The notes below the pieces were generated by a model. That model saw only the letters and a program-made list of their open reading frames with translations. It ran no database searches and was not told the origin of the DNA. Positions 5,202 through 62,852 of a stretch of 64,000 nucleotides of DNA are shown here, piece after piece. Each line of letters starts with the position of its first letter. Position 1 is the first letter of the stretch. Origin of the DNA: Naegleria gruberi (Eukaryota); assembly GCA_000004985.1 (NCBI GenBank), contig GG738890.1, one strand, 5' to 3'. The position numbers and the translations under genes were made by a program.

Positions 5202-6878
5202 ATGTCCCAACAACCACAACTCCCATCATCCTACGAGGATAATAACATTGCTACTTCAACTTCTAATGATAAAGTTACGAATTTAGAATTGACTCATGAA
5301 AAGATTATCATTATTGATTTCGGATCACAATATACACAACTCATTGGTCGTAAAGTTCGTGAATTGAATGTTTATTGTGAGATTTATCCATACGATAAAT
5401 TCAATGAAAATACATTGAAGGTGAGTAGTGGTGGTGAGAATGCAGAACAAGATGGATGGTCATTTGTGAGAGGTGTTATTCTATCTGGATCTCATCATTC
5501 AGTTCATGATGAACATTCACCACGTGTCAATGAACAAGTTTGGAATGAAATTCATAAGAGACAAATTCCAATTCTTGGTATTTGTTTTGGTGCTCAAATG
5601 TTAGCTCACTTGTATGGAGAACAAGTTGTTTCAAGTGTTATTAGAGAATATGGACGTGCTCATATTCAATTGACCTCAAATAATGAAGATACAATTCTTA
5701 GTCAATTGAGTGGTGATTCACAAGTTTGGATGTCGCATGGTGATTCAATTCTTATTAAGGAAGAAGGTTCTCAATTGGAAATTATTGCAAAATCTGATAG
5801 TATTCCAGTTGCTGCTTTCAAAGTTAAGGGAAAGAAGATTTTTGGTGTTCAATTCCATCCAGAGGTTCATCACTCACATTGTGGAAAGTTGATTCTCTCC
5901 AATTTCTTGAAACTTGCTGGATGCTCTTGTACTTGGACTCCTTCTCATTTCATTGACGAAACTGTAAAGAATTTGAAACAAACTATTGGAGAAAGTGATC
6001 ACGTTGTTATGGCATTGAGTGGAGGTGTTGACAGTAGTGTTGCTGCCGTTCTCTTACAAAAGGCTATTGGAGACAGATTACATTGTATTTTTGTAGATAA
6101 TGGATTATTGAGATTGAATGAATTTGAACAAGTATTGGAAACTTATAGAGATAGTTTACATTTGAATGTTAAGGGAGTTGAAGTATCTACACTCTTCTAT
6201 GATGCATTGAAGGGAGAATCTGATCCAGAAAAGAAACGTAAAATTATTGGAGCCAAATTTATTGAAGTATTCGAAAAGGAAGCTCAACAAATTTCCAATG
6301 TCAAACACTTGGGTCAAGGAACTATTTATCCAGATGTTGTCGAGTCAATTGGTGGAGCAACTATCAAGAGTCACCACAATGTTGGTGGTCTTCCAGAAAA
6401 GATGCACATGAAAGTGGTTGAGCCATTGAGATTACTTTTCAAGGATGAAGTCAGAAGAGTTGGTAAGGAATTAGGAATTCCAGATAACATCTTACTTCGT
6501 CATCCATTCCCTGGTCCTGGACTTGGTATTAGAATTTTAGGCGATATCACTGCAGAGAAGGTTGAATTATTACAAAAGGTTGATGCCATCTATGTTAATT
6601 CATTGAAGGAAGAAGGATTGTATAATCAAATCTGGCAAGCTGGTGCTATCTTGTTGCCAATTCATTCGGTTGGTGTTCAAGGGGATGGCAGAACTTATGA
6701 GAAGGTTGTTGCTTTGAGAGCTGTTACTTCTGTTGATGGTATGACTGCAGATATTTTCCATTTCCCTTGGGAATTCCTTGGAAAGGTTTCGAATAAGATC
6801 ATTAATCAAGTTAAGGGTGTGAATAGAGTTGTCTATGATATTAGTACTAAACCACCTTCAACTATTGAATGGGAATAA
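5202..6878 (+). CDS. guaA: GMP synthase (glutamine-hydrolysing)
   Basis: 558 aa. Class-I glutamine amidotransferase motifs ('[13 protein letters not shown]', '[11 protein letters not shown]') are followed by the PP-loop '[15 protein letters not shown]' and a GMP-synthase C-terminal domain. ~35-aa N-terminal extension. aaaaaaATGtcc start. Confidence 0.9.
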
Positions 6879-6937
6879 ATCTATTATCGATTCTAAACTT
6901 TTAAAACAAAGAACTCATTCATTTTGACAAGAAAAGT

Positions 6938-8351
6938 TTATGCCTTAACCTTAAAGTTATAAACGTCACCATCTTGAGTAATATATTCTTTTCCTTCCTG
7001 TCTAATCAGATTCTTTCTCTTGGCCTTGGCATCGTCACAATCGCAATCCAAATAATCCTTCCAATTAATGGTTTCTGCCTTGATGAATCCCTTTTCAAAA
7101 TCACTGTGAATTACACCTGCTGATTCTTGAGCAGTACTTCCTTTAGTAACAGTCCAAGCTCTTGTTTCTTGCACACCAACAGTGTAATAAGTAATGAGAT
7201 CCAACAATTCATAAGATGATGTGATAATTCTCTCGAGACCAGTTTGTTTCAACCCATATTCATTCAAAAGTTCAGCTCTTGATTCTGGTTCACATTGAGC
7301 AACTTCAGATTCCAATTGAGCACAGACAATAACTGGTTCAACAGTATTTCCTCTCTTCTTAATATGTTCTATAAGTGCTTGTGTATGTGTGTTTCCTCCA
7401 TCAATAATTGTCTGTTCATCCACATTACAAATATATAAAATTTTCTTGGTTGTTAAAAAGTTAAATTGTTTCAAAATGGCTATTTCAGCAGCTGTCCATT
7501 TAACTGTATAAAGTGAATTTTCCTCAATCAATGTTTCATGACACTTTTTCAATAAATCCATCTTATCCTTTGATGCTTGAATTTCCTTTCTCTTCATATT
7601 TCTTTCAACAACATCCAAATCACTGAGCATTAATTCTGATTCAATAATTTGAACATCTCTCACTGGATCAACACTATTTTCGACGTGTGTAATATTCACA
7701 TCTTCGAAACATCTCACCATTTGTGCAATACAGTTCACTCCTCTAATGTGACTCAAAAATTTGTTACCCAATCCCTTTCCTTCAGCTGCTCCTTTAATTA
7801 AACCTGCAATATCAATCACTTCAATGTAAGTTGGAACAATTTTCTTGGTTTTTGCCCTTTCAGCAAGTAATTCCAATCTTTCATCTGGAACTGTACAGAC
7901 ACCAACGTTTGGTTCAATAGTACAGAATGGGAAATTGGCTGCTTCTGCCTTTGTTGATTCAGTCAGTGCTGTTATTTAATTCGTATATAAAAAGTTTCAA
8001 ATAAATTTCATCAATTTCAATTATTTCACACAAGAATTTCAACAATTTTTATCATAATTGTTAGAGAAATTCAGAAGATTAAAACAACATACCATTAAAA
8101 AGTGTAGATTTACCAACATTTGGCATTCCGACAATTCCAACACTTCTCTTTGCACTACTTCTAGTCGAATGTGATTGAACGGAAGAATTCAACATGACGA
8201 ATTGTTGATTAAATTTAGAAGCAAATGTTGAATTGGCAAAAATTGATGCCGGTGTTGATGAACATTGTGTATTTCGGGTAATGACGGAATGAACACCCAA
8301 TAAACGTTGTTGGAAAACGTTGGTGGTGGAAAAGCGAGAAAGTTTTTGCAT
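6938..8351 (-). CDS. ola1: Obg-like ATPase 1 (YchF/Ola1), 2 exons
   Basis: Exon 1 is 8351..8093. It ends '...GIVGMPNVGKSTLFN' plus one nt (P-loop), then donor GTATGT. The intron is 7969..8092 (124 nt, GTATGT...AACAG). Exon 2 is 7968..6938 and continues 'ALTESTKAEAANFPFCTIEPNVG...IDIAGLIKGAAEGKGLGNKFLSHIR...' with a TGS-like C-terminus. Joined length 1290 nt = 430 codons, in frame. The two ORF-track pieces (8079..8351, 6938..7876) are these exons. taaaaaaaaATG start. Confidence 0.8.
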
Positions 8352-11475: not shown

Positions 11476-11593
11476 GGCTACGGCCATATCACGATGAATG
11501 CACCTCATCCCGTCCGATTTGAGAAGTTAAGCATCGTCGAGCCACATCAGTACTGAGGTTGGAGACAACTTGGGAACCTGTGGTGCTGTAGTC
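11476..11593 (+). rRNA. rrn5: 5S ribosomal RNA
   Basis: 118 nt beginning GGCTACGGCCATATCAC. Conserved 5S elements are present: the loop A/box A region, 'CCCGTCCGATTTGAGAAGTTAAGC', and '...GGGAACCTGTGGTGCTGTAGTC'. The 5' and 3' ends form the 9-bp helix I. A T5 run follows as a Pol III terminator. Identical second copy at 24727..24844. Confidence 0.85.
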
Positions 11594-11823
11594 TTTTTCA
11601 TTTTACCTTATGGATTATTTAATTATTTAGATATTGATCTGTATTAGGTTATAAATTCTACATTTGAAAAAAAGCAACATTCAATCCATGAAATCGTCCT
11701 TATAAACAGCCTTATGAAAGCCTTAGTGACAATTTCACTCTTGAGCTTTCGGTTTGTTTCAAGGTGGTTCTTATGTGAAATAACTTTTTCAAAATCCAAC
11801 ATAATGTTTCTATTATTTAACAG

Positions 11824-13941: not shown

Positions 13942-14015
13942 TACAGCGAGCGGGGCTTGAACCCGCGACCTTAAGCGTGTTAGGCTTACGATCTAACCAA
14001 CTGATCTATCGCTGC
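13942..14015 (-). tRNA. tRNA-Val (anticodon AAC)
   Basis: Minus strand GCAGCGA-TA-GATC-AGTTGGTTA-GATC-G-TAAGC-CTAACAC-GCTTA-AGGTC-GCGGG-TTCAAGC-CCCGC-TCGCTGT-A folds as a cloverleaf. The acceptor has a G1-U72 wobble. T-loop TTCAAGC. T-run downstream. Confidence 0.85.
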
Positions 14016-24726: not shown

Positions 24727-24844
24727 GGCTACGGCCATATCACGATGAATGCACCTCATCCCGTCCGATTTGAGAAGTTAAGCATCGTCGAGCCACATCA
24801 GTACTGAGGTTGGAGACAACTTGGGAACCTGTGGTGCTGTAGTC
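24727..24844 (+). rRNA. rrn5: 5S ribosomal RNA (second copy)
   Basis: 118 nt identical to 11476..11593. Followed by TTTT. Confidence 0.85.
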
Positions 24845-25087
24845 TTTTACTTATCAATATTGCTTATTGGTCAATCGTCCAGTTGCTTCTCTCATTCTTT
24901 CCATTATTCCAAACAAAGTGTTAACCACTGATAAAACTGCTCCATCATCAATAATGATCAATTAAGATTTGCTACATGTTCAAAATAAATGACATTATTA
25001 TTTATTAAAATACCACAAACATTTTGCCATTCTTCACTCTAGAACAAACAGAATAAAAACAATGTTCCTTATGCAATTCTGAAAACC

Positions 25088-25275
25088 ATCTTTCTCGGCC
25101 AATTGGCTTTGATCGAGTGTAGTATCTGTTCTTTTCAGTTTAATAGCTGAAAGCAGCCCACGGGTTGCATTACTATTAACTCAATTTTTTGTAGGGATCA
25201 GGGTTTGAGCTTGATTGCTCACTTTGATTGGTTTCAATCAGACATTGCACAAACCGTCAGATTAGGAGCCACCCA
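25088..25275 (+). ncRNA. U2: U2 spliceosomal snRNA
   Basis: ATCTTTCTCGGCCAATTGGCTTTGATCGAGTGTAGTATCTGTTCTTTTCAGTTTAATAGCTGA... matches the conserved U2 5' region, including the branch-point-interacting GUAGUA. Sm site AATTTTTTG. 3' stem-loops end ...GGAGCCACCC. Length ~187 nt. Confidence 0.85.
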
Positions 25276-25621
25276 ACTCTTTTAATTAATTGAAAAATCA
25301 TTGAACAAAGACAATCTCAATCAGAGTAAAATTGAGCTTTTTACAAATTCCGAGCATGTATGATGACGAAGATATAGTAAGCATGCTGAGGGACTCAAAA
25401 CAGTCATTGATTGGTGTTGATATTGAACAATTTCTTGTCGACATTTGAATGCAGTTGGCAAGTGCGAAAAGGAAAATGAGAAGTGGAACGATTTCAAGAA
25501 TGAATTATTTGATTAATTGAAAGTAGAAACAATTAGGAAATTGATGTTGTTTTTTGTTCTCCTTCATAACATAACTATTGGGATTAGCAACACTTAAAAG
25601 CTATTGAGAGGATGCAAAAGT

Positions 25622-25694
25622 TGGGGTCTGTGAGGATCGAACTCACGACCTTAGGATTATGAGACCTACGCGCTACCGACTGCGCCAAGACCCC
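25622..25694 (-). tRNA. tRNA-Met (CAU), elongator-type
   Basis: GGGGTCT-TG-GCGC-AGTCGGTA-GCGC-G-TAGGT-CTCATAA-TCCTA-AGGTC-GTGAG-TTCGATC-CTCAC-AGACCCC-A. Anticodon CAT. T-loop TTCGATC. No initiator-specific A1-U72, A54 or A60. Confidence 0.85.
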
Positions 25695-36916: not shown

Positions 36917-36989
36917 GGGGTCTTGGCGCAGTCGGTAGCGCGTAGGTCTCATAATCCTAAGGTCGTGAGTTCGATCCTCACAGACCCCA
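36917..36989 (+). tRNA. tRNA-Met (CAU), elongator-type
   Basis: Sequence identical to 25622..25694. Shares a 52-nt upstream block with the interrupted copy at 18035. CTTTTG terminator. Confidence 0.85.
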
Positions 36990-51556: not shown

Positions 51557-53854
51557 ATGGCAAGACGAGCGAAAAAACGTTTTTCAAAAACTAACCACAA
51601 GAGATCTGCTGCAGCAGAAGAGGACAAAACCACAAATGTTTCCAGCAGACTAGTCTCGGGATGCCTTAATGATACAAATAATACAACAATAAAACAAGAA
51701 GAACCATCACAACAATTAAAGAAATGTAAAATAGAAGTTGTAGAAAAATCTATAGCAGATGTAGATTTAAGGCTACGAAATATATATCATGATGAAGAAG
51801 CTTCACATCGACAACAAGAAATATTAGGGAATTCATTCGTAAGATACCTTCCACCTGTTTTTGGAAAAACAACACACGAAAGCCTTAAAAATCTCACTGT
51901 ACGAAAGGAGAAGATATTTAGGTATGAATTATTCCCTGAATGTATTTATCCACCAGAGAAACAAGATCTTGGTGAATTGATTGCAAATTTGATAAAAGTT
52001 AGTGTGAAAAGTCTTTTGGAAGGTAAATTATCTGAAAAGGAGCAAAAATTAAGAATTACTTTAACTGGAAGATCAGGTGATGGAAAAACTTTCTTACTAT
52101 ATTATTTAGCCAATAAGTGTAATGATTCCTGTATTTTTATTCCAATTCATCTTTCAATTAATGAGTTTTTTTATAGAGCTAGAATTCCTGATGAAGATGC
52201 TCTGTTGATTGACTGTGGAGTGTTAATTTGCTCCTATTTGACCTATGTTCAAGAGTTTTTGGAGAGTGGCATTACCAATCCTTACAAAATTATGGAACTG
52301 TTCAACAATACATATTCAAGAAAGGTAATGGAGAGAGCAATAACATTTGCAAGCACCAACAGTAATATGTTAGTACGAGTAGAATGTCAAAAATTGAGTA
52401 ACAAATTTGGTAAATATCCAGTGTTTGTTATTGATGAAGCACATATCATGGCCTCATCTCTTGCCAACAAAATTTCAAATGATGATGGAAAAAGAAATGA
52501 ATCTGCATTGACTGCAATAACGAGAGTGGCAGGATCAATCCCTGTAATTTGTTGCTCCACCAAGATATCCGGAGTTAATCTAGGAATAGATGTTTCTGGT
52601 TCTGAGCATTTGTACAAGTTTAATTTAACAACAGATATTATTGATATACCAAAGAGAGACATTTCCCCAAGCGATTTCATTTCCTTCTTTATTAACCCTT
52701 TTGAGAATGAAGATGTAAAACTCTTTACAAATATGCTTCTCTCTGAATGCCCAGTCCGTATTCATACAATGATTATAGATGAGTACTGGTTAGTTATGGA
52801 CAAAAACTTCCAAACAGATTCAAACTCCAAAACATGGAATCTGAAGAAAGCTATTAAGGGAGTGCTCACAAATCAAATGCCTTCTTTAGGAAAAAAAATG
52901 AAAGAGGAGTTTGATAATATTACTAATGAACGGCTAAAAAAGCTATTATTCTTTGTTTGGACAGGTTTAAATCCTAACATTGAAAACAATTCAGATTTTG
53001 ACTCGAGTTCACTAAAGAGCGTGGTACAAGAATTCAACCTCCATTCACATGATTTGTCTCAAGAGTATGAATTGTTCTCTCAACAAATGCTGCATCTGGG
53101 ATGTGGTAAACCAAAGGACGGAACTTATAGATTTTCTGATGCTTTTTTTAGGTTTGGATATTTTGAATCCATGAGAGATGATAATTGGTACACATATGTT
53201 GAAAACTTGGGGAGCTGTATGAAACACGTAGTACAATCTCATGTTGGGAAGAAGGGATTTCTTTTTGAAAGAGTTATTGGATTATTGTTAATGAGCATTT
53301 CAAAATCATTAAAGGGGAAACCACTTACAAGTTGCGTTTTGTTTGCAGGGGCAAAAGGCACTTGGTTGGATAATTACACAATCACCATTAGATCAGTAGA
53401 AATGACCCCAAAATATTATGAGCCATTGATTTTGTTTGAAATAACGGACATTATTGCCTGTTCAATTGACGAAAATTCAAGTTGCGATTTATTTCTTTCC
53501 TTAGTTCCTATCAGCAAAGATGAAAAGTTTGTTCCTTGTTTAACTTCTATCAAATTTCTAAAGACATTGCTTGGTGAAGAGGAAATTTTCAAGTCAACTT
53601 TGATTGAAAATCAACAAACAAATGTTTTATCATTTAATGAGTTGATGATAAGAAGTAATCACCACGCCAAAAGAAGATTAAGACTTGGATTTGCTGCCAA
53701 TTCTGTAATTGGACATGATGTTAAAATATCAAATGATGATGACATTCAAATATTGTTTTCCCTTAATCACAGATTATTATTTGATTATTTGAAAGAAAAT
53801 TTGGATTTTCTTCATGAAGCATTGATGAATCTCAATACCATTATTCATCGATAG
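51557..53854 (+). CDS. P-loop NTPase (AAA+/STAND-like) hypothetical protein
   Basis: 765 aa. Basic N-terminus (MARRAKKRFSKTNHKRS). Walker A 'LTGRSGDGKTFLLY'. Walker B-like 'PVFVIDEAHIM' ~110 aa later. Long C-terminal domain without recognised motifs. aaaaaaATG start. Confidence 0.5.
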   Translation: MARRAKKRFSKTNHKRSAAAEEDKTTNVSSRLVSGCLNDTNNTTIKQEEPSQQLKKCKIEVVEKSIADVDLRLRNIYHDEEASHRQQEILGNSFVRYLPPVFGKTTHESLKNLTVRKEKIFRYELFPECIYPPEKQDLGELIANLIKVSVKSLLEGKLSEKEQKLRITLTGRSGDGKTFLLYYLANKCNDSCIFIPIHLSINEFFYRARIPDEDALLIDCGVLICSYLTYVQEFLESGITNPYKIMELFNNTYSRKVMERAITFASTNSNMLVRVECQKLSNKFGKYPVFVIDEAHIMASSLANKISNDDGKRNESALTAITRVAGSIPVICCSTKISGVNLGIDVSGSEHLYKFNLTTDIIDIPKRDISPSDFISFFINPFENEDVKLFTNMLLSECPVRIHTMIIDEYWLVMDKNFQTDSNSKTWNLKKAIKGVLTNQMPSLGKKMKEEFDNITNERLKKLLFFVWTGLNPNIENNSDFDSSSLKSVVQEFNLHSHDLSQEYELFSQQMLHLGCGKPKDGTYRFSDAFFRFGYFESMRDDNWYTYVENLGSCMKHVVQSHVGKKGFLFERVIGLLLMSISKSLKGKPLTSCVLFAGAKGTWLDNYTITIRSVEMTPKYYEPLILFEITDIIACSIDENSSCDLFLSLVPISKDEKFVPCLTSIKFLKTLLGEEEIFKSTLIENQQTNVLSFNELMIRSNHHAKRRLRLGFAANSVIGHDVKISNDDDIQILFSLNHRLLFDYLKENLDFLHEALMNLNTIIHR

Positions 53855-53885: not shown

Positions 53886-54059
53886 TGATGAATAATTTAG
53901 GATTTAATTGTAAATATTGTAATTATCAATGAATTTGGAGATTACGAATAAACACGTCTCTATTGAGAATAGAGCTACGTGAGCTTGACTTTTCTCTACT
54001 TTTAACCATTCAGCAATTAATTGATAGCATTGACTCTTTTTCCAATTGTTCTTTTTCAT
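53886..54059 (+). repeat. 175-bp direct repeat element, copy 2
   Basis: See 49447..49622. Begins 31 nt after the stop of 51557..53854. Confidence 0.7.
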
Positions 54060-55835
54060 TAGGATGGACATGATTTCATGAATTTGGAGTCGATAAATTT
54101 TACACAATTCACTTGATGGGATGCCTAGTGGTTGACCTTTGTAATATTGGATTTTCTCATCTGAAAACATTTCATCTCTTTGGTGAGCTTCATGATTAAG
54201 TAAGCATTTAGGATAGGAAGTGCATTGATACAGGAGTGTACCAACTTTGTACGTATGAATATCAAAACATTTACCACAATGACACTTTCTATATTGCACT
54301 AAATCTCTTTTCAGTCTTTTCAAAACCATAGCCTTCCCACAATAGCATTGTACCTTGTATTGGTTAGTTTTCTTGTCTAGAAATGGTTTCGTTTTGGCTA
54401 GACCATTGTTTGGCTCTGTAACTTTCAACTTCTTGGCTGGTTGGCAATAATTTTCAGAGTGCTTGCTTGCTCTACTACTAAGCACTGCACTCTCGAATGC
54501 CTCTTGTTGACTCTGACCAGAGAATAATTGAGCTACAATGTAAGTTGAATTATTCTTCAATAGTTGAGATAGTGTTGGTTTTTCAGAACAAGTGCTGTTT
54601 TTGAGGACCTTAATTAAATCAAATAATCTTGATCGATTTTTCACAGAGGGATCGTTTTGAAATGTTTCAAATTCTTGTTCGTTCATTTTAGAACAGGTAC
54701 TCCACAAACTTTCTAATTGTACAATTTCCTTTTGGAGAATATTCTTACAGTATTGATATCTAACTTCGAGTTCTTTCATTTCATATTCACATTCGTAGTA
54801 CTTGCTCAAAACTGAAATGATAAATGGCTTATCGGAATTACTCGATTTCTTATAGTCTTCAAAGTGAACAACGAACGGAATGAGGAATTTTGGAGTGGCT
54901 TGAATCCATCCTCTATATTTCATTTTATGAATGAGGAGATAGAATGGATTTTTCAATTTCAATCGCTGATTGTTGGTGTCTCTCATGATGAATCCTTCAA
55001 TTCTCAATCTTGCTTCTACATTCTCATGAGTAGAGATGAATGTATCCAAATGTTTGAGAGCTTGTTCCAGACTTGAAAAATTCTCAAAACGTTTTGGTCT
55101 CTTCCAATTCTTCAACTCGGCTCTCTTTCTCAATTTCAAGCAAATTTTATCAACTTGATCCCTGGAGAGTTCCTTTCCACTTTGTGTCTCTACAATTGTC
55201 AGTAAGTAAATGACAGGATTCTGATAGATTTGAACAATTTCATTTTGTGAGGAACACATTTCCAAACAATAGGTCAGTGATGGATCCAAATCCTTTCCAA
55301 TCTCATTCAATTCTACTCCGCCACAAATTTCCACAAATAGCTCTCTATATGTTTTCTGTGTTTCACTTCCAATTGCCAAATAATCCTCACAAAAGTTGTG
55401 TCTCGTTGCAATCATCCACTCTCCCTCATAGCAAAACATTAAAAGAAACGTTCCATCTTCCTTTGTCTCCAAACTGAAATTAGAATAATCAAACAATTTG
55501 GATTTCTCCAATGATGGCGACTGATCCTGTTCCAAAAACACCAATTCTCTATCATCATTTAGTCCTCTAATATTCGGAGAGGACGAATACGAATGGTGCT
55601 GATTAAAAAACCTGGTCATTCCTCTCGCCACAATTTTCCACGAATTTAATTCCAACACCAAGCCTCTGCATTCATTGACAATTTGTTCATCACGTGGCGA
55701 TTGAATATTGTCATAATTTAATACAATTAATGGGAAGGAAGTTTGATCGGGATGTGTTGATGAGCGAATTTTGTATTTTTCATGGAGAGTCGTGATGGAT
55801 TGACCCTTCTGTTGGAGGAATTGTTGTGTTTGCAT
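53904..55835 (-). CDS. ATP-dependent RNA/DNA ligase-like nucleotidyltransferase with C-terminal Cys-rich (zinc-ribbon-like) region
   Basis: Covalent nucleotidyltransferase motifs are present: motif I 'KEDGTF' (KxDG), motif IV 'EGFIMRD', motif V 'LKLKN'. C-terminus 'CYCGKAMVLKRLKRDLVQYRKCHCGKC...CTSYPKC'. The ORF-track start at 55922 is a GTG. The ATG at 55835 has aaaaaaaATG context (643 aa). Confidence 0.5.
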   Translation of the reverse strand: MQTQQFLQQKGQSITTLHEKYKIRSSTHPDQTSFPLIVLNYDNIQSPRDEQIVNECRGLVLELNSWKIVARGMTRFFNQHHSYSSSPNIRGLNDDRELVFLEQDQSPSLEKSKLFDYSNFSLETKEDGTFLLMFCYEGEWMIATRHNFCEDYLAIGSETQKTYRELFVEICGGVELNEIGKDLDPSLTYCLEMCSSQNEIVQIYQNPVIYLLTIVETQSGKELSRDQVDKICLKLRKRAELKNWKRPKRFENFSSLEQALKHLDTFISTHENVEARLRIEGFIMRDTNNQRLKLKNPFYLLIHKMKYRGWIQATPKFLIPFVVHFEDYKKSSNSDKPFIISVLSKYYECEYEMKELEVRYQYCKNILQKEIVQLESLWSTCSKMNEQEFETFQNDPSVKNRSRLFDLIKVLKNSTCSEKPTLSQLLKNNSTYIVAQLFSGQSQQEAFESAVLSSRASKHSENYCQPAKKLKVTEPNNGLAKTKPFLDKKTNQYKVQCYCGKAMVLKRLKRDLVQYRKCHCGKCFDIHTYKVGTLLYQCTSYPKCLLNHEAHQRDEMFSDEKIQYYKGQPLGIPSSELCKIYRLQIHEIMSILMKKNNWKKSQCYQLIAEWLKVEKSQAHVALFSIETCLFVISKFIDNYNIYN

Positions 55836-56096
55836 TTTTTTTGGCTTGATTTTACAATTTCGATTTTGAACTTGTGAGATACTTAAAAGAATATTATTGT
55901 GTATTGAAAGAATAAATATCACAACATTTGCTTTAAATGATTTGTAAGTTTAACATCTCTGACAGCTTTGATGTCAATGTTCTGGTGTGAAAATCTTGAA
56001 AAAGGTCTTGCTATCAAACGAAGCAATCCTCGGCAACTTGAGAACTCATTATTTCAAAACGTTGTTGCTTGAGTCTTGTTATGGAGTTGTACGAAA

Positions 56097-57548
56097 CTAA
56101 TTATTGGTATCACTAATGTTATTAGATTCTTGTGCATTTTGTTGAGAAAGATAAACTCGAGTTGAATGTAAATGATCAAATAGGGAGGTATGAGTGAATT
56201 CCTCTGAAATCCATTCAGGAATTGCAGTTTCAAAAGTCCACTTGTCTGATAATTCGTAACGCCATGAATGTAGATGGATACTCAGTGGTACAGTGTCATC
56301 TTCCTCAATGTTTTTAGAGGTATATTCTGCATTACAGGAAATGCAAACAGTTTCAAATGGCTGTAAGAAGGTTTCCTCTTCAGGTCGAATGTTTGTATGT
56401 GAACGTTTGAAAGGACCTGGTTTTGGCTTTTTTGATTTGGGAGCATTCTTTTCAGAGGTCTCCTTTCTCTTGTGAGGATTTTCTTCTGTTGGTATGGAGG
56501 TATCTGTTGATGATTCACTATTTTCCAAGGAAATATCAGATGTTGATTCGAGTTGGTGATTGGAAAAGTCGACTCTCCAACTTTCTTCCAAAGTCTTTTT
56601 TTGCACTTCCAATTCCTTAATGAATTGTTCGTTATAGAAAAAATCATTAATGATAGGATTTCCAATAGATTCCAAATGAATTCTAATCTGATGTGTTCTT
56701 CCAGTGATTGGTTTACACATTATGAGTGAAATATCCTTTTCCTTATTGTAGACAATACCAGAAAAGAGAGTAATTGCCTCAAACGTTCCCAATTCATCAT
56801 CTGCTGACCAAGTTCCATTCTTGTGATTTTTGCAATATACCTTCTTTTCACATTTCACAAAACTGTTATTTAAATCCTTCACCAATCCACTCACTTCATA
56901 TTCTCCTTTCCACTTTCCTTTCACAACAGCCAAATAATATTTTCCAATTGCCTTTTCTCTTGTCTTGATCATTTCCACAATTTCTCCCGAAACCTTCTTA
57001 TTCTTTGCCAAAACAAGAACTCCCGATGTACTATGATCCAATCGATGAACAACATGAAGTGTTCCATATCCATTCTCCTCCAAAATATAAGTCAATGAAT
57101 TCTTTCGATATCTTCCACAGGGATGAATAGGAAAACTAGCTGGTTTATCGACAACTAATAAATCTGACTCATCATATAAAATTGGAATATTCCTATCAAA
57201 TATTGGTTTCTCATGAAAATGTACTCGATGAGCAATTGTCTTGCTTTTATCCCACTTTTCCTCTAAATTATTTAAATTTTCGTTATTAATTTTAAATCGA
57301 CCTAATTCGAAGGCTTTCATCAGATATTGTTCGGAAAAGTAGGGAAATTCCGCTCTATAGACATCAAGTACCTTCTTATCAACCCATCTATCTCGACATC
57401 CTGTTTGAAAGTCGAGAAAATAGGGAATTGCATGACGAAGTCCATTCCGAACAAGATATTGTTTGCCTCTTGCTAATTCAATGGTTTTCTTGACGAGGAG
57501 ATTTGAAGATGATGACACTGTTGGAATTGTTAGAGGCATCTCACTCAT
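56097..57548 (-). CDS. RluA-family pseudouridine synthase
   Basis: 483 aa. 'LLVVDKPASFPIHP', catalytic 'VHRLDHSTSGVLVLAKN' and 'GRTHQIRIHL' motifs. Acidic/S-rich C-terminal extension. aaaaaaaATG start. Confidence 0.8.
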   Translation of the reverse strand: MSEMPLTIPTVSSSSNLLVKKTIELARGKQYLVRNGLRHAIPYFLDFQTGCRDRWVDKKVLDVYRAEFPYFSEQYLMKAFELGRFKINNENLNNLEEKWDKSKTIAHRVHFHEKPIFDRNIPILYDESDLLVVDKPASFPIHPCGRYRKNSLTYILEENGYGTLHVVHRLDHSTSGVLVLAKNKKVSGEIVEMIKTREKAIGKYYLAVVKGKWKGEYEVSGLVKDLNNSFVKCEKKVYCKNHKNGTWSADDELGTFEAITLFSGIVYNKEKDISLIMCKPITGRTHQIRIHLESIGNPIINDFFYNEQFIKELEVQKKTLEESWRVDFSNHQLESTSDISLENSESSTDTSIPTEENPHKRKETSEKNAPKSKKPKPGPFKRSHTNIRPEEETFLQPFETVCISCNAEYTSKNIEEDDTVPLSIHLHSWRYELSDKWTFETAIPEWISEEFTHTSLFDHLHSTRVYLSQQNAQESNNISDTNN

Positions 57549-57611
57549 TTTTTTTATTAATTATATATTTATTAAATTATATATTTATAAAATATTTATT
57601 TAATTATTAAA

Positions 57612-60600
57612 TTAGAAATATTTATCGCCATTACAACTTGATTGATGGTTGTAAATTGGACCACTTGAAGTTGCACTATATCCACAAAGCCAACAAAAAT
57701 GATTTGGGCAAGCTCTACAGGTCATATGGTTACATCCCTCATTCTTTTCAATAGGTGTGTGGCATTGTGGACAACTCTTGGTATGTCTCCTCTTGTATTC
57801 TTCAAAAAGTTTCTCACAATCAACACAAGGTCCTTGGTGTGCATTTTTGTGACATTTCAAACAATAGTCCTTATCACAAACGATGCAATAGTATGATTGA
57901 ACTCCTGTTACTCTCGATAGATTTTGACAAGTATTACAGTATGTCCATTTAGTCTTATTAGATGTAATGTACTTCTCAAGGAGAATGTTACATGGTTGAG
58001 TGAGTTTCTTGGCATCATTATCAAAGGAGCATACGATATCCATAAAAGGTAATGGTTGTTGGCAGTAATTACAGCAAAGAAGACCTGATTCAATGTTGAA
58101 ACCATCTACTTGGAGAGCTAGACATGCTTGACAACATGTGTGTCCACAAAATGTAAGGTTGTTTGGGTTAATATCATTACAACAAATATCGCATTCATTT
58201 GTTGAAGAAGCGCCACTATGGGTTGATTCAATTTCTTCAACTTTCTTCTTTACAGTTTCAAAATCAGCCTCTGAAGAATCAACCTCTAATGTTCTTTTCT
58301 TAAGGTTCAAATGTATACTCCCCTTAATACACTTTTTAATGTCATCATAAGAAGATCCTCCATTTCCTACAATTGCTTTCATGTTTCTTAATTTGATTTC
58401 TCTAATTTTACTGGCTTGAATAGTGCCAGATATTTCCTTTGCAACAAAATCCCTTTGAGGTCCAAATACTTTGATAGATGATGATCGAGAATCAAAAGCA
58501 AGTAAAATCTCAGGATACCTTTTTGTTGTATCCTCCTTGATTTTGGGGAATCTTCTTTGAACGTTAGCTTTCAAGGAGAATGCTATTTTGATTATTGTGT
58601 GTGAGATTATCTCATTAACTTTCTTTTTGGCCTTTTCAAACTCTGACAAATTTGAAACTGCTTCAAACTTGATTTTTCCACTGTTACCAGTTTCAGTCAT
58701 TTTCTTATTGGGTTCTTGAATGATCTCATTGAAAGACACTTTGATTTGGTGCTCATAGTATATGCTTTCAAAAACAGCACTCAACACATTTTTCTTGTTA
58801 AGACTTTCAAAAACATTTTTTGGAATAGTAATTGAATCGGTCTTATAATATAATTGTAAACTTCCATTTCCAAAAGTAGTCCCTTGTAATGTTGCAATGG
58901 CTGTGTCAGCACTCCTCTTGTTATTATACTTAACTAGAGCTTTGATGAATTTCTTACTTTCCTTTTCAGCTAATGGCAACAATTCCATAACTTCTAATCC
59001 TGGAAATTGTGTAAATAAAGAGTGCAGTTGTGTAGTAATCATTTCTAAGTCAATCAGATTGTTACACTCATCTCGGTGGAAAAAAATTTGTGTGTAAGGA
59101 AGTTTGTTTTTAAAAAGAACACCTGCTAAATGTGACTCTGTGAAATCGGTAGAAAGTTGATCAAAAGCGAGTTTGTTTTGTTTGATTTGAACTTTCCCAA
59201 GTGAACCATTCAAAACTTGATTTGCCTCTATAGCAGATTGGTTGTTAGGAAATTCAACCACTGCTTTTCCTTTGCAAGGAGTAAGGTAATATTTAAGTTG
59301 AATAAAGGGAACATTTTCATCTATTTGCAGCTGTGTATTTTCACTGAGACTAGATGGGAAAAGTTGAATAAAAGTTTCATTCTTCAACTCGGAATAAACT
59401 CTTTCTGCAACTATGCTGTCTTCAAAGGTAACATAGCCCTCCAATTTCTGTGCGCTTGTATTGTTTGGATATGTCACAAACTCCCATACTGGTCCATATT
59501 TCACAAATAGTTGCTCAATATCACAGGCACTCTTCTGCTCAATAGCTATTTTAAAGTTAATTCTTACAAACTCCTTGGAGGTTAGGATTTTTACAACATT
59601 TAGACCAGAACCAACCAAGACTCTGATATTCTTTTGATCATTAGGAACATATTCGTATAATTGTTTGGAAATTCTTTCCTCAATCTGTTTGCAGAATTTT
59701 TCAATTTTTGGTTTGTTTTCTTGCTCTTCATTTTCAGATAATTCCATTCTCAACTCATTCATTTCTTCATCGACTTCGACCAACACGCCAAGTTCTTTCT
59801 CTAATTGTTCTAAAAGCTCTCCACCTCTTGCTTTCAAAAGAGGAAGAGCAGATTTAGGAATTTTCTTGTTATAAGGTTTTTTGACAAATTGTTTGATACG
59901 ACTATAGTTAAAAGATTGGTTATACTTTTGTATAATATTAATATCTACAGGGGTGACGTTTTTCATGTAGAGCTTTTCAGTTCTCATAAGTTCATAGAAG
60001 AGAACATATGAAGGAGGTTTTTCTTCTGAAAATAATACAGATGATGGATGGAGACAAGCTTCTAAATTCAATTCCAATAACTTATAGATGAAATTTCCAT
60101 TACTACTCTTTCCTATATAGTACGCAAAGTTAGAGAATAAACCACAAATAATAGAATCCAAAATTACTTTCTTTTTGAGTTCCTCAGAAGTGTTCTTATC
60201 ATTGATACTTTCAGAGTTAAGGGATTTAATACTCTTCTCAAGATCTTTCAAGGTTGCGAAGGCCATATTGAATGCAGAATAATTCAAATGATTGTCCTTA
60301 CAAAATTGTGATCTTTCTTTAGATTTTTTCTTCAAAAATTGTTCAAATAGCAAATAGAGAGAATATAAATCTCCTTCCTGTTGAGAGGAAGAAAGCTTGC
60401 TAATCGAAATATCATCCTTGTCTTTTCCATCCTTAGATCTTTGGAAAACAATGTTAGATACAGTTGTAATAGCAGCAACTTTTAAAATATCAGATGAAAT
60501 TCCATTTTCAATTCCTTCAATAATCATCTTGGAAACAGATGGTTCCATATAGAGTTGAGATGCAATTTGACCTGATTTGGTAATACGCAAAAGGTTAGCA

Positions 60601-62852
60601 CCAGTAATCTCTACAAACCCAAGACTTATCAGTTTAGCTAATTGAAACGTCAAATCTTTAGGAGACGGTTTTTCAATCAGGTCATAGGCTTTCAATGAAT
60701 CAATAGAAATAGGTTTAGAGGAATCCTGATGGAGAATTATTTGAAGCAAAACAGAGCCGAGATGAGATCTAAATATTTCTGCAGGTTGTGAGATACTGAA
60801 TTGCTCAAAGTCTGATAATGAATAAAGGTTATAACATTCACCAGGTTGGGTTCTACCAGCTCTACCCCTTCTTTGCTTTGATGAAGATTGACTAATGTAG
60901 TTTACCTTAAGAAGGGAAATGTTTCTGTTTTGGTCAAAAGTTCTTTCTTTTACACGTCCGCTATCAATTATTGTGGTAATACCATTAATTGTAACTGATG
61001 TTTCAGCAATGTTGCTAGAGAAAATAACCTTTGTCTTGCCTTTGATTGGATTCAAAGCTCTTTGTTGGCTTTCAACAGGAAGCTTTCCGTGGAGTGGAAG
61101 AATTTCAATTTGTTCTTTGAATGACGTCTTGTTTTTAAGCATTGATTTTAATTTGTGACAAGCAGAATCAATTTCTTCAGGATTAGTCAAGAATACCAAT
61201 ATATCACCGGACAACTTATTTCCTGCTTTGGATCTAGATGAGAGAACAGAAACAACCTTTTTTACGCTTTGTTCAACATATTTGTCTTCTGATTTCTCCC
61301 AATGAACCTCAACTGGATACAATTGGCCAGGCACTCTAATAATTGGACAATCATTAAAATATTTGGAGAATAAATTTTCATCAATAGTGGCAGAGGTAAT
61401 AATAATTTTCAATGGGTCTCCAGTTCCTTTTCTTTCCTTGTACAGTTTCTTTAGTTCACAAAGAAGAATGTCTGTAAAAACAGTTCTTTCATGTGCCTCG
61501 TCAATTATTACACAACTATAATTTTTCATCTTCTTTTTCAATAATTCATGAAGGAGAGCTCTGTCAGTCATGAACATGAGTTTGTTTTTTCTCCAATCTT
61601 CAGGTGTCAACCTCTTGTCAACAGATCTAATTAGTGGACTATCAGTGCATAACATTTCCTCACTAATTCTTTTAGCTAATGATTGAGCCGCAATCTTTCT
61701 TGGTTGGGTACAAACAATTTTCTTTTTGAATATACCAGATTCTAATAAATACTGAGGTATTTGTGTAGACTTTCCGCTTCCTGTATGACCAACGATCAAA
61801 ACAACATCGTTACTTGAAATTTCATCAATAATCTTTTGTCTAAATGCATAAAAAGGAAATAGATTTGTTGCTCTTTTCAATTCCCTTTCAATGGCCTTAA
61901 TTTTGATTTCTAACTTTACCTTTGATTCCAAAATTCTCTTAGTTTGGATTTCAAAGGTGGCCTGTTGCTCTAACAGTAGGGTTTCTTCAGATTTTATGGC
62001 AAGTTTGTTTTCTATGTACTTTTCATAGTCAGATTCTAACAGCTTGACATTTTCCCTGTTCTTACGTTGAATATCTTTAAGTCGTATTCCAAACTGGCTC
62101 TTCATCTTGGAAGTTTCAAAGTACGCTTCATCCACCTCTTTGATTTTGGATTTGTTAGAAGAGTAGGTATCCAAAATAAATGAACCAAATGGATCAGGGA
62201 GAAGCTGCTCTTCGAATGAATAATCATTGTCTAAGAATTCTAAACCGTTTGATACAACACTACTAGAATCACTGATGACTGACATTGTTTCATCAGTAGA
62301 GCTGTCATCATCACTGTCAGATTCAACCAAAGTTTTCCTTTCTTTCATCTTGCTTTGTTGTCTCTTATTGAAAGTGCTAGCATTCGACAATGATGAGTGA
62401 TCAAAAGTACAGCAAATTTTGAAGCATTCTGCTCCATGCTGGCACTTTTTTCTGTTATTGTGTTCGTACAAGCATTCACGGTTAGCACATTCATCTCCCT
62501 TTTCACAAGTAATTGGTACAAGTTTAGGTAATCTTTCATCTCCCTTTGACTTGTTAACAGTGGAAGGAGGATTAGCTCCAAGACCATTCTTGTGGTTTTT
62601 GTTCTTGTTGTCTCCTTGTTTTTGGCTCTTTGCTACTCCACTTGCTACATTATTCTTGATGGAAACAGCCGAGCTGAGAGTGTTGCCTGCTGGAGGGGTG
62701 ATTGTAGAATTGTTAGCTGTGTGATCTAATGTACATTTAATATTCTTACAGCTAGAACCAAATCTACATTTCATTCTAGAGTTATGACGAAAAGTACACT
62801 CAATGTTTTTACACTTGTCATCAAATTTGCAAAGGGGAATGTGTGGTAACAT
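57612..62852 (-). CDS. CCCH zinc-finger / DEAH-box helicase / RBR (RING-IBR-RING) E3-ligase fusion protein
   Basis: 1746 aa. N-terminal tandem CCCH-like fingers ([34 protein letters not shown]). DEAH helicase core (GHTGSGKST ... IIDEAHERT ... SATID ... QRRGRAGR) with HA2/OB-like regions. C-terminal RBR (CDICCNDI...[40 protein letters not shown]). Same domain order as plant DEAH11/12-type proteins (from memory). Confidence 0.8.
   Translation of the reverse strand: [1746 protein letters not shown]

What the first reader, a model, noticed from the sequence alone, without database searches (positions are those of the whole stretch)
53904..55835. Eukaryotic RNA/DNA-ligase-like nucleotidyltransferase with a C-terminal Cys-rich module
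Motifs I (KEDG), IV (EGFIMRD) and V (LKLK) of covalent nucleotidyltransferases (ligases/capping enzymes) are present in the right order and spacing. The N-terminal region and a ~250-aa C-terminal extension with a C-x-C...C-H-C...C cluster are not like classic ATP-dependent DNA ligases. Stand-alone Rnl-type RNA ligases are sporadic in eukaryotes and are often viral or horizontally acquired, so function and origin are of interest.
Basis: partly seen in the sequence, partly recalled or inferred. Interest (0 to 1): 0.55.

Follow-up and report, generated by a model that had tools for sequence, protein, structure and literature searches.

The report
Rnl1-type RNA ligase with zinc domain
This Naegleria gruberi gene encodes an uncharacterised RNA-joining enzyme of the phage T4 Rnl1 type, fused to a cysteine-rich domain of unknown function (DUF3268); the same fusion occurs in a few other protists and a giant virus, so it is real and modestly novel but not surprising for this organism.

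Summary
The minus-strand ORF 53904..55835 encodes a 643-aa protein identical to Naegleria gruberi XP_002673552.1/EFC40808.1, annotated "hypothetical". It has KEDG (aa 125-128), EGFIMRD (280-286) and LKLK (292-295).

Profile alignment to T4 RNA ligase 1 puts K125 on the T4 nucleophile K99. It also matches the ATP-contacting residues of the N sub-domain and motifs Ia, III, IV and V. Pfam gives RNA_lig_T4_1 (E 1e-22) and, at the C-terminus, DUF3268 (above its cut-off).

A confident AlphaFold model shows four parts: an Rnl1-like adenylyltransferase, a helical domain, a basic beta-rich cysteine module and a three-helix bundle.

The ligase+DUF3268 fusion recurs in about 90 sequence clusters. Named members are three Naegleria species, Pelomyxa, Paratrimastix and Klosneuvirus. 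Some relatives add a 2H phosphoesterase or a P-loop kinase, which points to RNA break repair.

The gene is a long-resident nuclear gene, not a recent viral insertion.

Most likely it is an active ATP-dependent RNA ligase whose zinc module binds the substrate or a partner; that role is inferred, not shown. It is a new variant of a known kind, of moderate interest.

The parts
53904..55835 (-). Complete intron-less coding sequence (643 aa plus stop) of the N. gruberi Rnl1-like RNA ligase, NAEGRDRAFT_80922 / XP_002673552.1
   Evidence: ORF list; 100% identity over 643/643 aa to P0020 = EFC40808.1; coordinates re-translated
54948..55835 (-). Adenylyltransferase domain (aa 1-296): Rnl1-like N sub-domain plus the NTase core. 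A Naegleria-specific disordered loop lies at aa 81-112.
   Evidence: Pfam PF09511 at aa 55-299; PHROG 562 at aa 20-330; hhalign to T4 Rnl1 gives probability 98%, E 1.3e-13; AF2 pLDDT is mostly above 90 except in the loop; Foldseek to T4 Rnl1 gives E 2e-14
55662..55673 (-). ECRG (aa 54-57). R57 is the counterpart of T4 Rnl1 R54, an ATP gamma-phosphate contact of the N sub-domain.
   Evidence: Alignments; C56, R57 and G58 are invariant in A1; the role of the equivalent Trl1 Arg99 is taken from PMC6379707
55452..55463 (-). Motif I, KEDG (aa 125-128). K125 is the predicted AMP-accepting lysine.
   Evidence: Aligns with KEDG of T4 Rnl1 (K99; the 5tt6 K99M structure shows MEDG at this position); invariant in A1
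55392..55415 (-). Motif Ia region, MIATRHNF (aa 141-148). R144 is the counterpart of T4 K119.
   Evidence: Profile alignment; the position is R or K in 11 of 12 family members
55251..55271 (-). Motif III region, YCLEMCS (aa 189-195). E192 is the counterpart of T4 E159.
   Evidence: Alignment; E192, C194 and S195 are invariant
54978..54998 (-). Motif IV, EGFIMRD (aa 280-286). E280-G281 is the counterpart of T4 E227-G228.
   Evidence: E280 and G281 are at least 90% conserved in the 71-sequence alignment A3
54951..54962 (-). Motif V, LKLK (aa 292-295). K293 and K295 are the counterparts of T4 K240 and K242.
   Evidence: K293 and K295 are invariant in A1
54471..54947 (-). All-helical middle domain (aa 297-455). 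It opens with the family signature H303-K-M-K306-Y-R-G-W310.
   Evidence: AF2 secondary structure. hhalign runs co-linearly into the T4 Rnl1 C-domain, but at low confidence. The [KR][YF]xGW motif is present in 55 of 85 fused forms and in 0 of 16 ligase-only relatives.
54186..54461 (-). Basic, beta-rich Cys/His module (aa 459-550). Conserved residues are H459, C464, C497, C499, C518, C520, C538, C544 and H548. It is predicted to bind zinc.
   Evidence: Conservation counts over 94 fused forms; AF2 beta strands with pLDDT 85-97; net charge +13 over aa 456-550; weak, non-significant CxC...CxC match to the Thermotoga topoisomerase I zinc ribbon
53907..54140 (-). GxPxGxP linker and three-helix bundle (aa 566-643). 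This is the core of Pfam DUF3268. Conserved residues are G571, P573, C578, K579, R582, H586, Y604, H619 and C628.
   Evidence: Pfam PF11672 at aa 528-633; PHROG 1934 at aa 566-637; conservation counts; AF2 helices 576-596, 600-611 and 625-639; BFVD matches to Orpheovirus and phage DUF3268 proteins

Best explanation
The gene encodes a catalytically competent ATP-dependent RNA ligase of the T4 Rnl1 type. The inferred mechanism is the classic three-step pathway. First, K125 (motif I) attacks the ATP alpha-phosphate to form ligase-(lysyl)-AMP, assisted by K293/K295 (motif V), E192 and E280 (metal binding) and R57/R75/R144 (gamma-phosphate/PPi side). Second, AMP is transferred to a 5'-phosphate RNA end. 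Third, the 3'-OH attacks and seals the break. The helical domain and the basic, probably zinc-binding DUF3268 module are appended to the catalytic domain. They most likely select the substrate (a broken structured RNA such as a tRNA or rRNA loop) or dock the enzyme on a partner, as the different C-terminal modules do in other RNA ligase clades. The biological role is most likely repair of RNA breaks, working with separately encoded end-healing enzymes. Shown here: family assignment, conservation of all catalytic residues, the domain architecture and its recurrence. Inferred: activity, RNA as the substrate, zinc binding and the role of the C-terminal module.
For: The sequence matches Rnl1-type profiles strongly: PF09511 E 1e-22 over the full profile, PHROG 562 (T4 gp63) E 1.5e-31, family profile against PDB T4 Rnl1 E 1.3e-15, and hhalign probability 98% over 286 columns. 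Residue-by-residue correspondence with T4 Rnl1 is R57~R54, R75~K75, F76/F77~F76/F77, K125~K99, D127/G128~D101/G102, R144~K119, E192~E159, E280/G281~E227/G228, K293/K295~K240/K242 and H303/K306~H250/K253. The roles of the equivalent Trl1 residues are described in PMC6379707. The AF2 model has pLDDT 84 and pTM 0.79. Its best solved-structure matches are T4 Rnl1 (2e-14), then Trl1-LIG (1e-8), Rnl3 and NgrRnl. The C-terminal module is conserved: PF11672 is found in all 12 family members, best E 7.6e-13. Six Cys are present in 88-92 of 94 fused forms, and H459/C464 are present wherever the alignment reaches them. The module is basic: +13 in this protein, with positive means of +2.4 and +3.5 across the family. 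The fusion recurs: about 94 long forms (70 of them new 50%-identity cluster representatives) carry the domain, and most also carry KEDG and EG...KxK. Links to RNA repair come from relatives. P0014 is ligase-DUF3268-2H phosphoesterase with both HxT motifs; P0090 is ligase-DUF3268-P-loop kinase. These are the same healing activities that are fused to the ligase in Trl1. N. gruberi is known to be rich in RNA ligases (PMC4408790).
Confidence: 0.72

Rival explanations
1. It is the tRNA-splicing ligase of Naegleria. That would make it a Trl1/Rnl6-type enzyme that needs a 2'-phosphate on the 3'-OH end.
For: Trl1-LIG structures are significant Foldseek matches (E 1e-8 to 1e-7). Related discobids (kinetoplastids) use a Trl1-type ligase according to PMC6379707. 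Some family members are fused to kinase or 2H phosphoesterase domains, like Trl1. Basic residues K304, K306 and R308 follow motif V at about the spacing of the Trl1 RxxR site (sequence; PMC6379707).
Against: This protein has no kinase or cyclic phosphodiesterase domain. Motif I is KEDG as in T4 Rnl1, not KxNG as in Trl1. The family profile retrieves T4 Rnl1 from the PDB but no Trl1 chain at E <= 1. The H303/K306 residues after motif V also align with T4 H250/K253, so they are not Trl1-specific. N. gruberi also encodes two RtcB ligases and seven other Rnl1-family proteins that could serve tRNA splicing (PMC4408790).
Confidence: 0.1
2. It is a recently acquired giant-virus gene, an integrated viral fragment or an assembly contaminant, and not a genuine Naegleria gene.
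For: Klosneuvirus KNV1 encodes a protein with the same two-domain architecture at 37% identity. That is closer than Pelomyxa (26%) or Paratrimastix (30%). In a neighbour-joining tree the Naegleria clade sits next to the Klosneuvirus-like clade. Thirteen IMG/VR contigs (5.8-214 kb, most of them 54-214 kb) encode ligase-only relatives.
Against: Orthologues at 54-56% identity exist in N. fowleri and N. lovaniensis. The N. fowleri copy is split by a gap of about 60 nt, consistent with an intron. Gene GC (35.2%) matches its flanks (32.9%). The neighbours are ordinary eukaryotic genes, and the window carries U2 snRNA, 5S rRNA and tRNA genes. Bootstrap support for the Naegleria plus Klosneuvirus grouping is only 20-25%. 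An ancient exchange between amoebae and giant viruses remains possible, in either direction.
Confidence: 0.08
3. The ligase acts on DNA or on RNA-DNA junctions, directed there by a DNA-binding DUF3268 module.
Confidence: 0.07
4. DUF3268 is itself an enzyme that uses a conserved His/His/Cys metal site in the bundle, for example for RNA end healing, and not merely a binding module.
For: R582, H586, Y604, H619 and C628 are conserved in both fused and stand-alone forms. C578, R582 and H586 fall on one face of helix 576-596. In stand-alone forms C578 is often Thr, which would leave three ligands, a pattern seen at catalytic zinc sites (the catalytic-zinc generalisation is from my own knowledge).
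Against: A bundle of about 70 aa is small for an active site. No similarity to any known hydrolase or transferase was found. Relatives that carry DUF3268 still add separate kinase or phosphoesterase domains. Conserved Cys/His residues in small domains are usually structural.
Confidence: 0.03

Closest known systems
Bacteriophage T4 RNA ligase 1 (RnlA/gp63; Rnl1 family; PDB 2c5u, 5tt6, 9do4)
   Same: It shares the N sub-domain and NTase core, with every aligned catalytic and ATP-contact residue conserved, including the KEDG nucleophile motif. It is the best structural match (Foldseek E 2e-14). In both proteins a helical domain follows motif V, and the HxxK residues after motif V are shared.
   Different: Identity is only about 16-22%, and the protein scores far below the T4 RnlA equivalog cut-off. 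The N. gruberi protein is 643 aa against 374 aa. It has a disordered insert at aa 81-112 and an additional Zn/DUF3268 module of about 190 aa that T4 Rnl1 lacks. Homology of the helical domains is not established.
Fungal, plant and kinetoplastid tRNA ligase Trl1, ligase domain (Rnl6 clade; PDB 6n67, 6n0t, 9qw7)
   Same: It has an Rnl1-like N sub-domain plus NTase (Foldseek E 1e-8). Some relatives of the N. gruberi protein carry the same kinds of healing domain as Trl1, namely a P-loop kinase or a 2H phosphoesterase.
   Different: The N. gruberi protein has no kinase or phosphodiesterase domain. Its motif I is KEDG, not KxNG. Its C-terminal modules are different. There is no profile-level sequence match to Trl1 chains.
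Naegleria gruberi NgrRnl (Rnl5; PDB 5cot)
   Same: It comes from the same organism, belongs to the same superfamily and uses the same three-step chemistry (PMC4408790).
   Different: Only about 195 columns of the NTase core align (Foldseek E 3e-5). NgrRnl (339 aa) has its accessory domain at the N-terminus and no C-terminal domain.
Klosneuvirus KNV1 'RNA ligase' ARF12500.1, and the Pelomyxa schiedti and Paratrimastix pyriformis 'RNA ligase' entries (all uncharacterised)
   Same: They have the same ligase + DUF3268 architecture, the same motifs and the same Cys pattern.
   Different: Identity is 26-37%. The viral forms are shorter (about 500 aa), lacking the Naegleria loop and part of the helical domain. 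None has been studied, so they add distribution but not function.
Stand-alone DUF3268 (PF11672) proteins of phages and bacteria
   Same: They share the CxC...Cx(2-5)C knuckles, the GxPxGxP linker and a three-helix bundle with conserved R582, H586, Y604, H619 and C628 equivalents.
   Different: They are 110-190 aa, are not fused to a ligase, mostly lack the upstream H459/C464 and C497/C499 elements, and sit in early/DNA-metabolism regions of phage genomes. Their function is unknown.

Membership tests
Rnl1-type ATP-dependent RNA ligases (Pfam PF09511 RNA_lig_T4_1) | Motif I KxDG lysine aligned with the T4 Rnl1 nucleophile K99 | tested here: met
   K125 in KEDG aligns with KEDG of 2c5u/9do4 and with MEDG of the K99M structure 5tt6. 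hhalign gives the same register.
Rnl1-type ATP-dependent RNA ligases (Pfam PF09511 RNA_lig_T4_1) | Nucleotidyltransferase motifs Ia, III, IV and V in order, with their catalytic residues | tested here: met
   R144~K119, E192~E159, E280-G281~E227-G228 and K293/K295~K240/K242; these are invariant or nearly invariant in the family.
Rnl1-type ATP-dependent RNA ligases (Pfam PF09511 RNA_lig_T4_1) | [quoted passage not shown] | tested here: met
   ECRG (R57) and TRFF (R75, F76, F77) align with ECRG and EKFF of T4 Rnl1.
Rnl1-type ATP-dependent RNA ligases (Pfam PF09511 RNA_lig_T4_1) | Score above the curated Pfam gathering threshold | tested here: met
   81.6 bits against 28.3, over profile positions 1-227 of 227.
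Rnl1-type ATP-dependent RNA ligases (Pfam PF09511 RNA_lig_T4_1) | C-terminal helical domain homologous to the tRNA-specificity domain of T4 Rnl1 | tested here: inconclusive
   A helical domain is predicted at aa 297-455. hhalign extends co-linearly to T4 aa 346, but with low per-column confidence. Foldseek aligns about 440 columns, but with rmsd about 20 A.
Rnl1-type ATP-dependent RNA ligases (Pfam PF09511 RNA_lig_T4_1) | Covalent lysyl-AMP formation and sealing of 3'-OH/5'-PO4 RNA ends | not testable with these tools
   This needs recombinant protein and labelled ATP and RNA substrates.
T4 RnlA orthologues (NCBIfam TIGR02308, equivalog) | Score above the equivalog cut-off | tested here: not met
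   34 bits against a cut-off of 242.25. The protein is related to T4 RnlA but is not an orthologue.
Trl1 / Rnl6 tRNA ligases | Ligase domain joined to polynucleotide kinase and 2H cyclic phosphodiesterase domains | tested here: not met
   Only PF09511 and PF11672 are found in the 643-aa protein. Kinase or 2H domains occur only in some distant relatives.
Trl1 / Rnl6 tRNA ligases | Requirement for a 2'-PO4 at the 3'-OH end | not testable with these tools
   This is a biochemical property. Basic residues follow motif V, but they also align with T4 Rnl1.
Rnl5 (NgrRnl/DraRnl) | Clade-defining N-terminal domain preceding the NTase, with no C-terminal domain | tested here: not met
   Only the NTase core aligns (about 195 columns, E 3e-5). 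The architecture here is N sub-domain - NTase - helical domain - Zn/DUF3268.
ATP-dependent DNA ligases / mRNA capping enzymes | Match to DNA_ligase_A_M or mRNA_cap_enzyme profiles, and a C-terminal OB domain | tested here: not met
   No such Pfam family appears even at E <= 1. DNA ligases appear only as weak NTase-core structural matches (E about 1e-4).
DUF3268 (Pfam PF11672, zinc-finger-containing domain) | Score above the Pfam gathering threshold | tested here: met
   31.5 bits against 28.4 for this protein. All 12 family members match, best E 7.6e-13, as do 54 of 71 in A3.
DUF3268 (Pfam PF11672, zinc-finger-containing domain) | Conserved cysteine knuckles capable of binding zinc | tested here: met
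   C518, C520, C538 and C544 are conserved in 88-92 of 94 fused forms, and in the stand-alone forms wherever they are aligned. Actual metal binding is not testable here.

The most novel reading that the evidence does not exclude
[quoted passage not shown] It would be a seventh clade, alongside Rnl1-Rnl6, which are distinguished by their appended domains. It is shared among free-living amoeboid and excavate protists and giant viruses. In this reading, the zinc-binding DUF3268 module is the specificity determinant for one class of broken RNA. That would also give the first functional handle on DUF3268, a domain found in more than 1500 sequence clusters, mostly from phages.
Probability: 0.3. Interest if true: 0.6.

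Novelty: new variant of a known kind. Interest (0 to 1): 0.4.

Why it matters
RNA ligase clades are told apart by the domains fused to a common catalytic core, and those domains decide which broken RNA gets repaired. This protein carries a fused domain that has not been described in any studied ligase. The fusion is conserved in roughly ninety sequence clusters from protists, giant viruses and metagenomes.

Characterising it would do three things. It would add a substrate-recognition solution to the RNA-repair repertoire. It would give a first functional clue for DUF3268, which is widespread in phages. It would also add an eighth Rnl1-like gene to the seven already counted in Naegleria gruberi, an organism noted for its unusually large set of RNA-sealing enzymes.

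It does not overturn any current understanding.

Tried and rejected
- **Exact-sequence contig look-up:** looking up the window protein found nothing on record. Identity was obtained through cluster membership instead.
- **Word-indexed searches:** a search with the C-terminal 167 aa alone returned no candidates. Repeating it with the 71-sequence alignment added almost nothing. The exhaustive representative search was what revealed the family.
- **AlphaFold-database fold search:** the library was not available.
- **Phage genome contexts of stand-alone DUF3268 genes:** these showed no RNA-repair neighbours and gave no functional assignment.
- **Conserved gene neighbourhood:** the N. fowleri orthologue has different neighbours. 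The run of RNA-related genes in the window is therefore not supported as a functional cluster.
- **Adjacent DUF3268 genes next to ligase-only viral genes:** none was found within 5 kb in 13 IMG/VR loci.
- **Recent viral insertion or contamination:** rejected on the grounds of orthologues in three species, an apparent intron in N. fowleri, matching GC content and eukaryotic neighbours.
- **Neighbour-joining tree:** it has too little support (20-25%) to decide between viral and cellular origin. A first tree script timed out.
- **Literature:** the Burroughs and Aravind 2016 survey of RNA repair systems could not be read. I therefore cannot exclude that it mentions this architecture. No held paper mentions this gene's accessions, links DUF3268 to ligases or uses the name Rnl7.
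Full report
**The observation**

The finding's coordinates are the ATG-to-stop reading of a minus-strand ORF, 53904..55835, 643 aa. A mechanically longer GTG start at 55922 adds 29 residues that are absent from the annotated protein and from all orthologues.

The three motifs are present as described: KEDG at aa 125-128, EGFIMRD at aa 280-286 and LKLK at aa 292-295. So is the cysteine cluster: C497-x-C499, C518-H-C520, C538 and C544.

The protein is 100% identical over its whole length to Naegleria gruberi EFC40808.1 / XP_002673552.1 (NAEGRDRAFT_80922). NCBI calls it "hypothetical protein" and UniRef calls it "T4 RNA ligase 1-like N-terminal domain-containing protein".

The window is therefore N. 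gruberi nuclear DNA. This fits its roughly 33% GC, its U2 snRNA, 5S rRNA and tRNA genes, and its ordinary eukaryotic neighbours: protein kinase, Kelch-BTB, WD40, LRR and a DEAH helicase.

**Family assignment**

- Pfam gives RNA_lig_T4_1 (PF09511) at aa 55-299, E 9.8e-23, across the entire profile. It also gives DUF3268 (PF11672, "zinc-finger-containing domain") at aa 528-633, 31.5 bits against a cut-off of 28.4.
- No DNA-ligase or capping-enzyme family appears even at E <= 1.
- PHROG 562, the family of T4 gp63 (RNA ligase 1), matches aa 20-330 at E 1.5e-31.
- A profile of twelve family members retrieves the three T4 Rnl1 entries from the PDB at about 1e-15.
- hhalign against the T4 rnlA product, fetched from a T4 genome record, gives probability 98%, E 1.3e-13, over 286 columns.

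In these alignments the T4 residues correspond as follows:

| This protein | T4 Rnl1 | Element |
|---|---|---|
| R57 | R54 | N sub-domain |
| R75 | K75 | N sub-domain |
| F76/F77 | F76/F77 | N sub-domain |
| K125 | K99 | motif I nucleophile |
| R144 | K119 | motif Ia |
| E192 | E159 | motif III |
| E280-G281 | E227-G228 | motif IV |
| K293/K295 | K240/K242 | motif V |
| H303/K306 | H250/K253 | after motif V |

The K99M crystal form shows MEDG exactly opposite KEDG. The roles of these positions (lysine nucleophile, metal-binding glutamates, alpha-phosphate lysines, gamma-phosphate contacts from the Rnl1-like N sub-domain) are described for the homologous Trl1 ligase domain in PMC6379707.

Both fail. 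The protein is not a T4 RnlA orthologue, however: the NCBIfam equivalog model scores 34 bits against a cut-off of 242.

**Structure**

An AlphaFold2 model built from the twelve-sequence alignment is confident (mean pLDDT 84, pTM 0.79). It shows:

- an adenylyltransferase domain (aa 1-296), with a disordered, Naegleria-specific loop at aa 81-112;
- an all-helical domain (aa 297-455);
- a beta-rich segment (aa 485-550);
- a three-helix bundle (aa 576-639).

Foldseek against the PDB ranks T4 Rnl1 first (E 2e-14). Fungal Trl1 ligase domains follow (1e-8), then archaeal Rnl3 enzymes (1e-7), and, through the NTase core only, N. gruberi NgrRnl (3e-5) and DNA ligases (1e-4).

It is unresolved whether the helical domain is homologous to the tRNA-specificity domain of T4 Rnl1. 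The hhalign alignment runs on co-linearly to T4 residue 346, but with low confidence.

**The C-terminal module**

Modelled alone, aa 474-643 gives pLDDT 89.5. It has no convincing solved relative:

- The family profile finds only a non-significant match (E 0.95) of its CxC...CxC segment to the zinc ribbon of Thermotoga topoisomerase I.
- Against predicted viral structures it matches an Orpheovirus protein fragment (6e-8) and phage proteins labelled DUF3268 or "zinc finger domain protein".

An exhaustive profile search of 1.84 billion cluster representatives finds 1508 relatives at E <= 1e-3.

- **Fused forms.** The roughly 94 long forms carry the domain at or near the C-terminus. They almost always also carry KEDG and EG...KxK.
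- **Stand-alone forms.** The rest are mostly proteins of 110-190 aa that start at the second cysteine knuckle or at the bundle.

Across the fused forms, C497, C499, C518, C520, C538 and C544 are present in 88-92 of 94. H459 and C464 are present whenever the alignment reaches them. H548, C578, H586, H619 and C628 are present in 71-86 of 94. That is enough conserved Cys/His for two or three zinc sites. I could not inspect coordinates, so the pairing is not assigned.

The module is basic: +13 over aa 456-550 in this protein, with positive means across the family.

A signature just after motif V, [KR][YF]xGW (here K306-Y-R-G-W310), occurs in 55 of 85 fused forms and in none of 16 ligase-only relatives. 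This suggests that this helix and the extra module work together.

**Distribution and origin**

Named members of the fused family are:

- N. gruberi, N. lovaniensis (56% identity) and N. fowleri (54%);
- Pelomyxa schiedti (26%);
- Paratrimastix pyriformis (about 30%);
- Klosneuvirus KNV1 ARF12500.1 (37%).

The remainder are metagenomic. Thirteen IMG/VR contigs (5.8-214 kb, most of them 54-214 kb) encode relatives of about 370 aa that lack the DUF3268 module and have no such gene within 5 kb.

A neighbour-joining tree places the well-supported Naegleria clade (bootstrap 100) beside the Klosneuvirus-like clade and away from Pelomyxa and Paratrimastix. That placement has only 20-25% support.

Several observations argue against a recent insertion:

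- The gene is present in three Naegleria species.
- The N. fowleri copy is interrupted by a gap of about 60 nt, consistent with an intron.
- Gene GC equals that of its flanks.
- The neighbours are cellular genes.

An old exchange between amoebae and giant viruses is plausible but unproven, and its direction is open.

**Function**

Every catalytic residue is kept, so I take the protein to be an active ATP-dependent ligase that uses the standard lysyl-AMP / App-RNA / sealing pathway.

RNA break repair is the most likely role. The catalytic domain is of the type represented by T4 Rnl1, which repairs a cleaved tRNA anticodon loop, and by Trl1. In addition, some relatives extend the same ligase-DUF3268 chain with end-healing modules. 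P0014 adds a 2H phosphoesterase with both HxT motifs. P0090 adds a P-loop kinase of the AAA_33/Zeta type with a GxxxSGKST loop. These are the two healing activities fused to the ligase in Trl1. The N. gruberi protein lacks them and would depend on separate healing enzymes.

By analogy with other ligase clades, whose appended domains confer substrate specificity (PMC4408790, PMC6379707), the helical and zinc modules are the likely substrate- or partner-recognition elements. This step is inference.

The phage contexts of stand-alone DUF3268 genes are DNA-oriented. DNA or protein binding therefore cannot be excluded.

**Comparison with what is known, and novelty**

Unciuleac and Shuman (PMC4408790) reported that N. 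gruberi encodes 13 classic RNA ligases, including seven Rnl1-family members that they listed by accession. EFC40808.1 is not in that list, so this gene appears to be an additional, eighth Rnl1-like gene.

No held paper mentions its accessions, links DUF3268 to ligases or names a clade beyond Rnl6. One relevant survey could not be read.

The ligase nature is already implicit in automatic database annotation. What is undescribed is the conserved fusion to the extended DUF3268 zinc module and its spread across protists and giant viruses.

I rate this a new variant of a known kind, of moderate interest. It is a sound lead for RNA-repair biochemists and a first functional association for DUF3268, but it is not a surprise in an organism already famous for its RNA ligases.

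Noticed in passing
window 53904..62852, minus strand: Three RNA-related genes lie head-to-tail on the same strand. They are a 1746-aa DEAH-box helicase with OB_NTP_bind, RRM and IBR domains (57612..62852), an RluA-type pseudouridine synthase (56097..57548) and the RNA ligase (53904..55835). The N. fowleri orthologue has different neighbours, so this may be coincidence.
   Followed up: partly
window 51557..53854, plus strand: A 765-aa ORF converges on the ligase gene, with only 49 bp between the two stop codons. It has only sub-threshold P-loop NTPase matches (AAA_22, nSTAND3, ResIII) and no family assignment.
   Followed up: partly
window 11476..11594, 24727..24845, 25086..25276, 25622..25694: There are two 5S rRNA genes with identical scores. 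One of them lies in a tight cluster with a U2 snRNA gene and a tRNA-Met gene (24.7-25.7 kb). Further tRNA genes lie at 13942..14015 (Val) and 36917..36989 (Met).
   Followed up: no
literature: PMC4408790 compared with this gene: The published list of seven N. gruberi Rnl1-family accessions does not include EFC40808.1, the protein encoded here. The organism therefore seems to have at least eight Rnl1-like genes.
   Followed up: partly
L003 878..3883 (P0014) and P0090: Metagenomic relatives extend the ligase-DUF3268 chain. P0014 adds a C-terminal 2H phosphoesterase and P0090 adds a P-loop kinase, so between them they reproduce the Trl1 set of activities in a different domain order. Their organisms are unknown.
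   Followed up: partly
L001 6001..8286 (N. fowleri VFQX01000061.1): The N. fowleri orthologue is split into two ORFs (6001..6543 and 6604..8283) by a gap of about 60 nt, consistent with a short intron. The N. gruberi gene is uninterrupted.
   Followed up: partly
P0130 (451 aa, metagenomic): One protein carrying a partial match to the DUF3268-like module combines it with an aminoglycoside/choline-kinase-type phosphotransferase fragment and ankyrin repeats. The module is therefore not restricted to ligase fusions.
   Followed up: no
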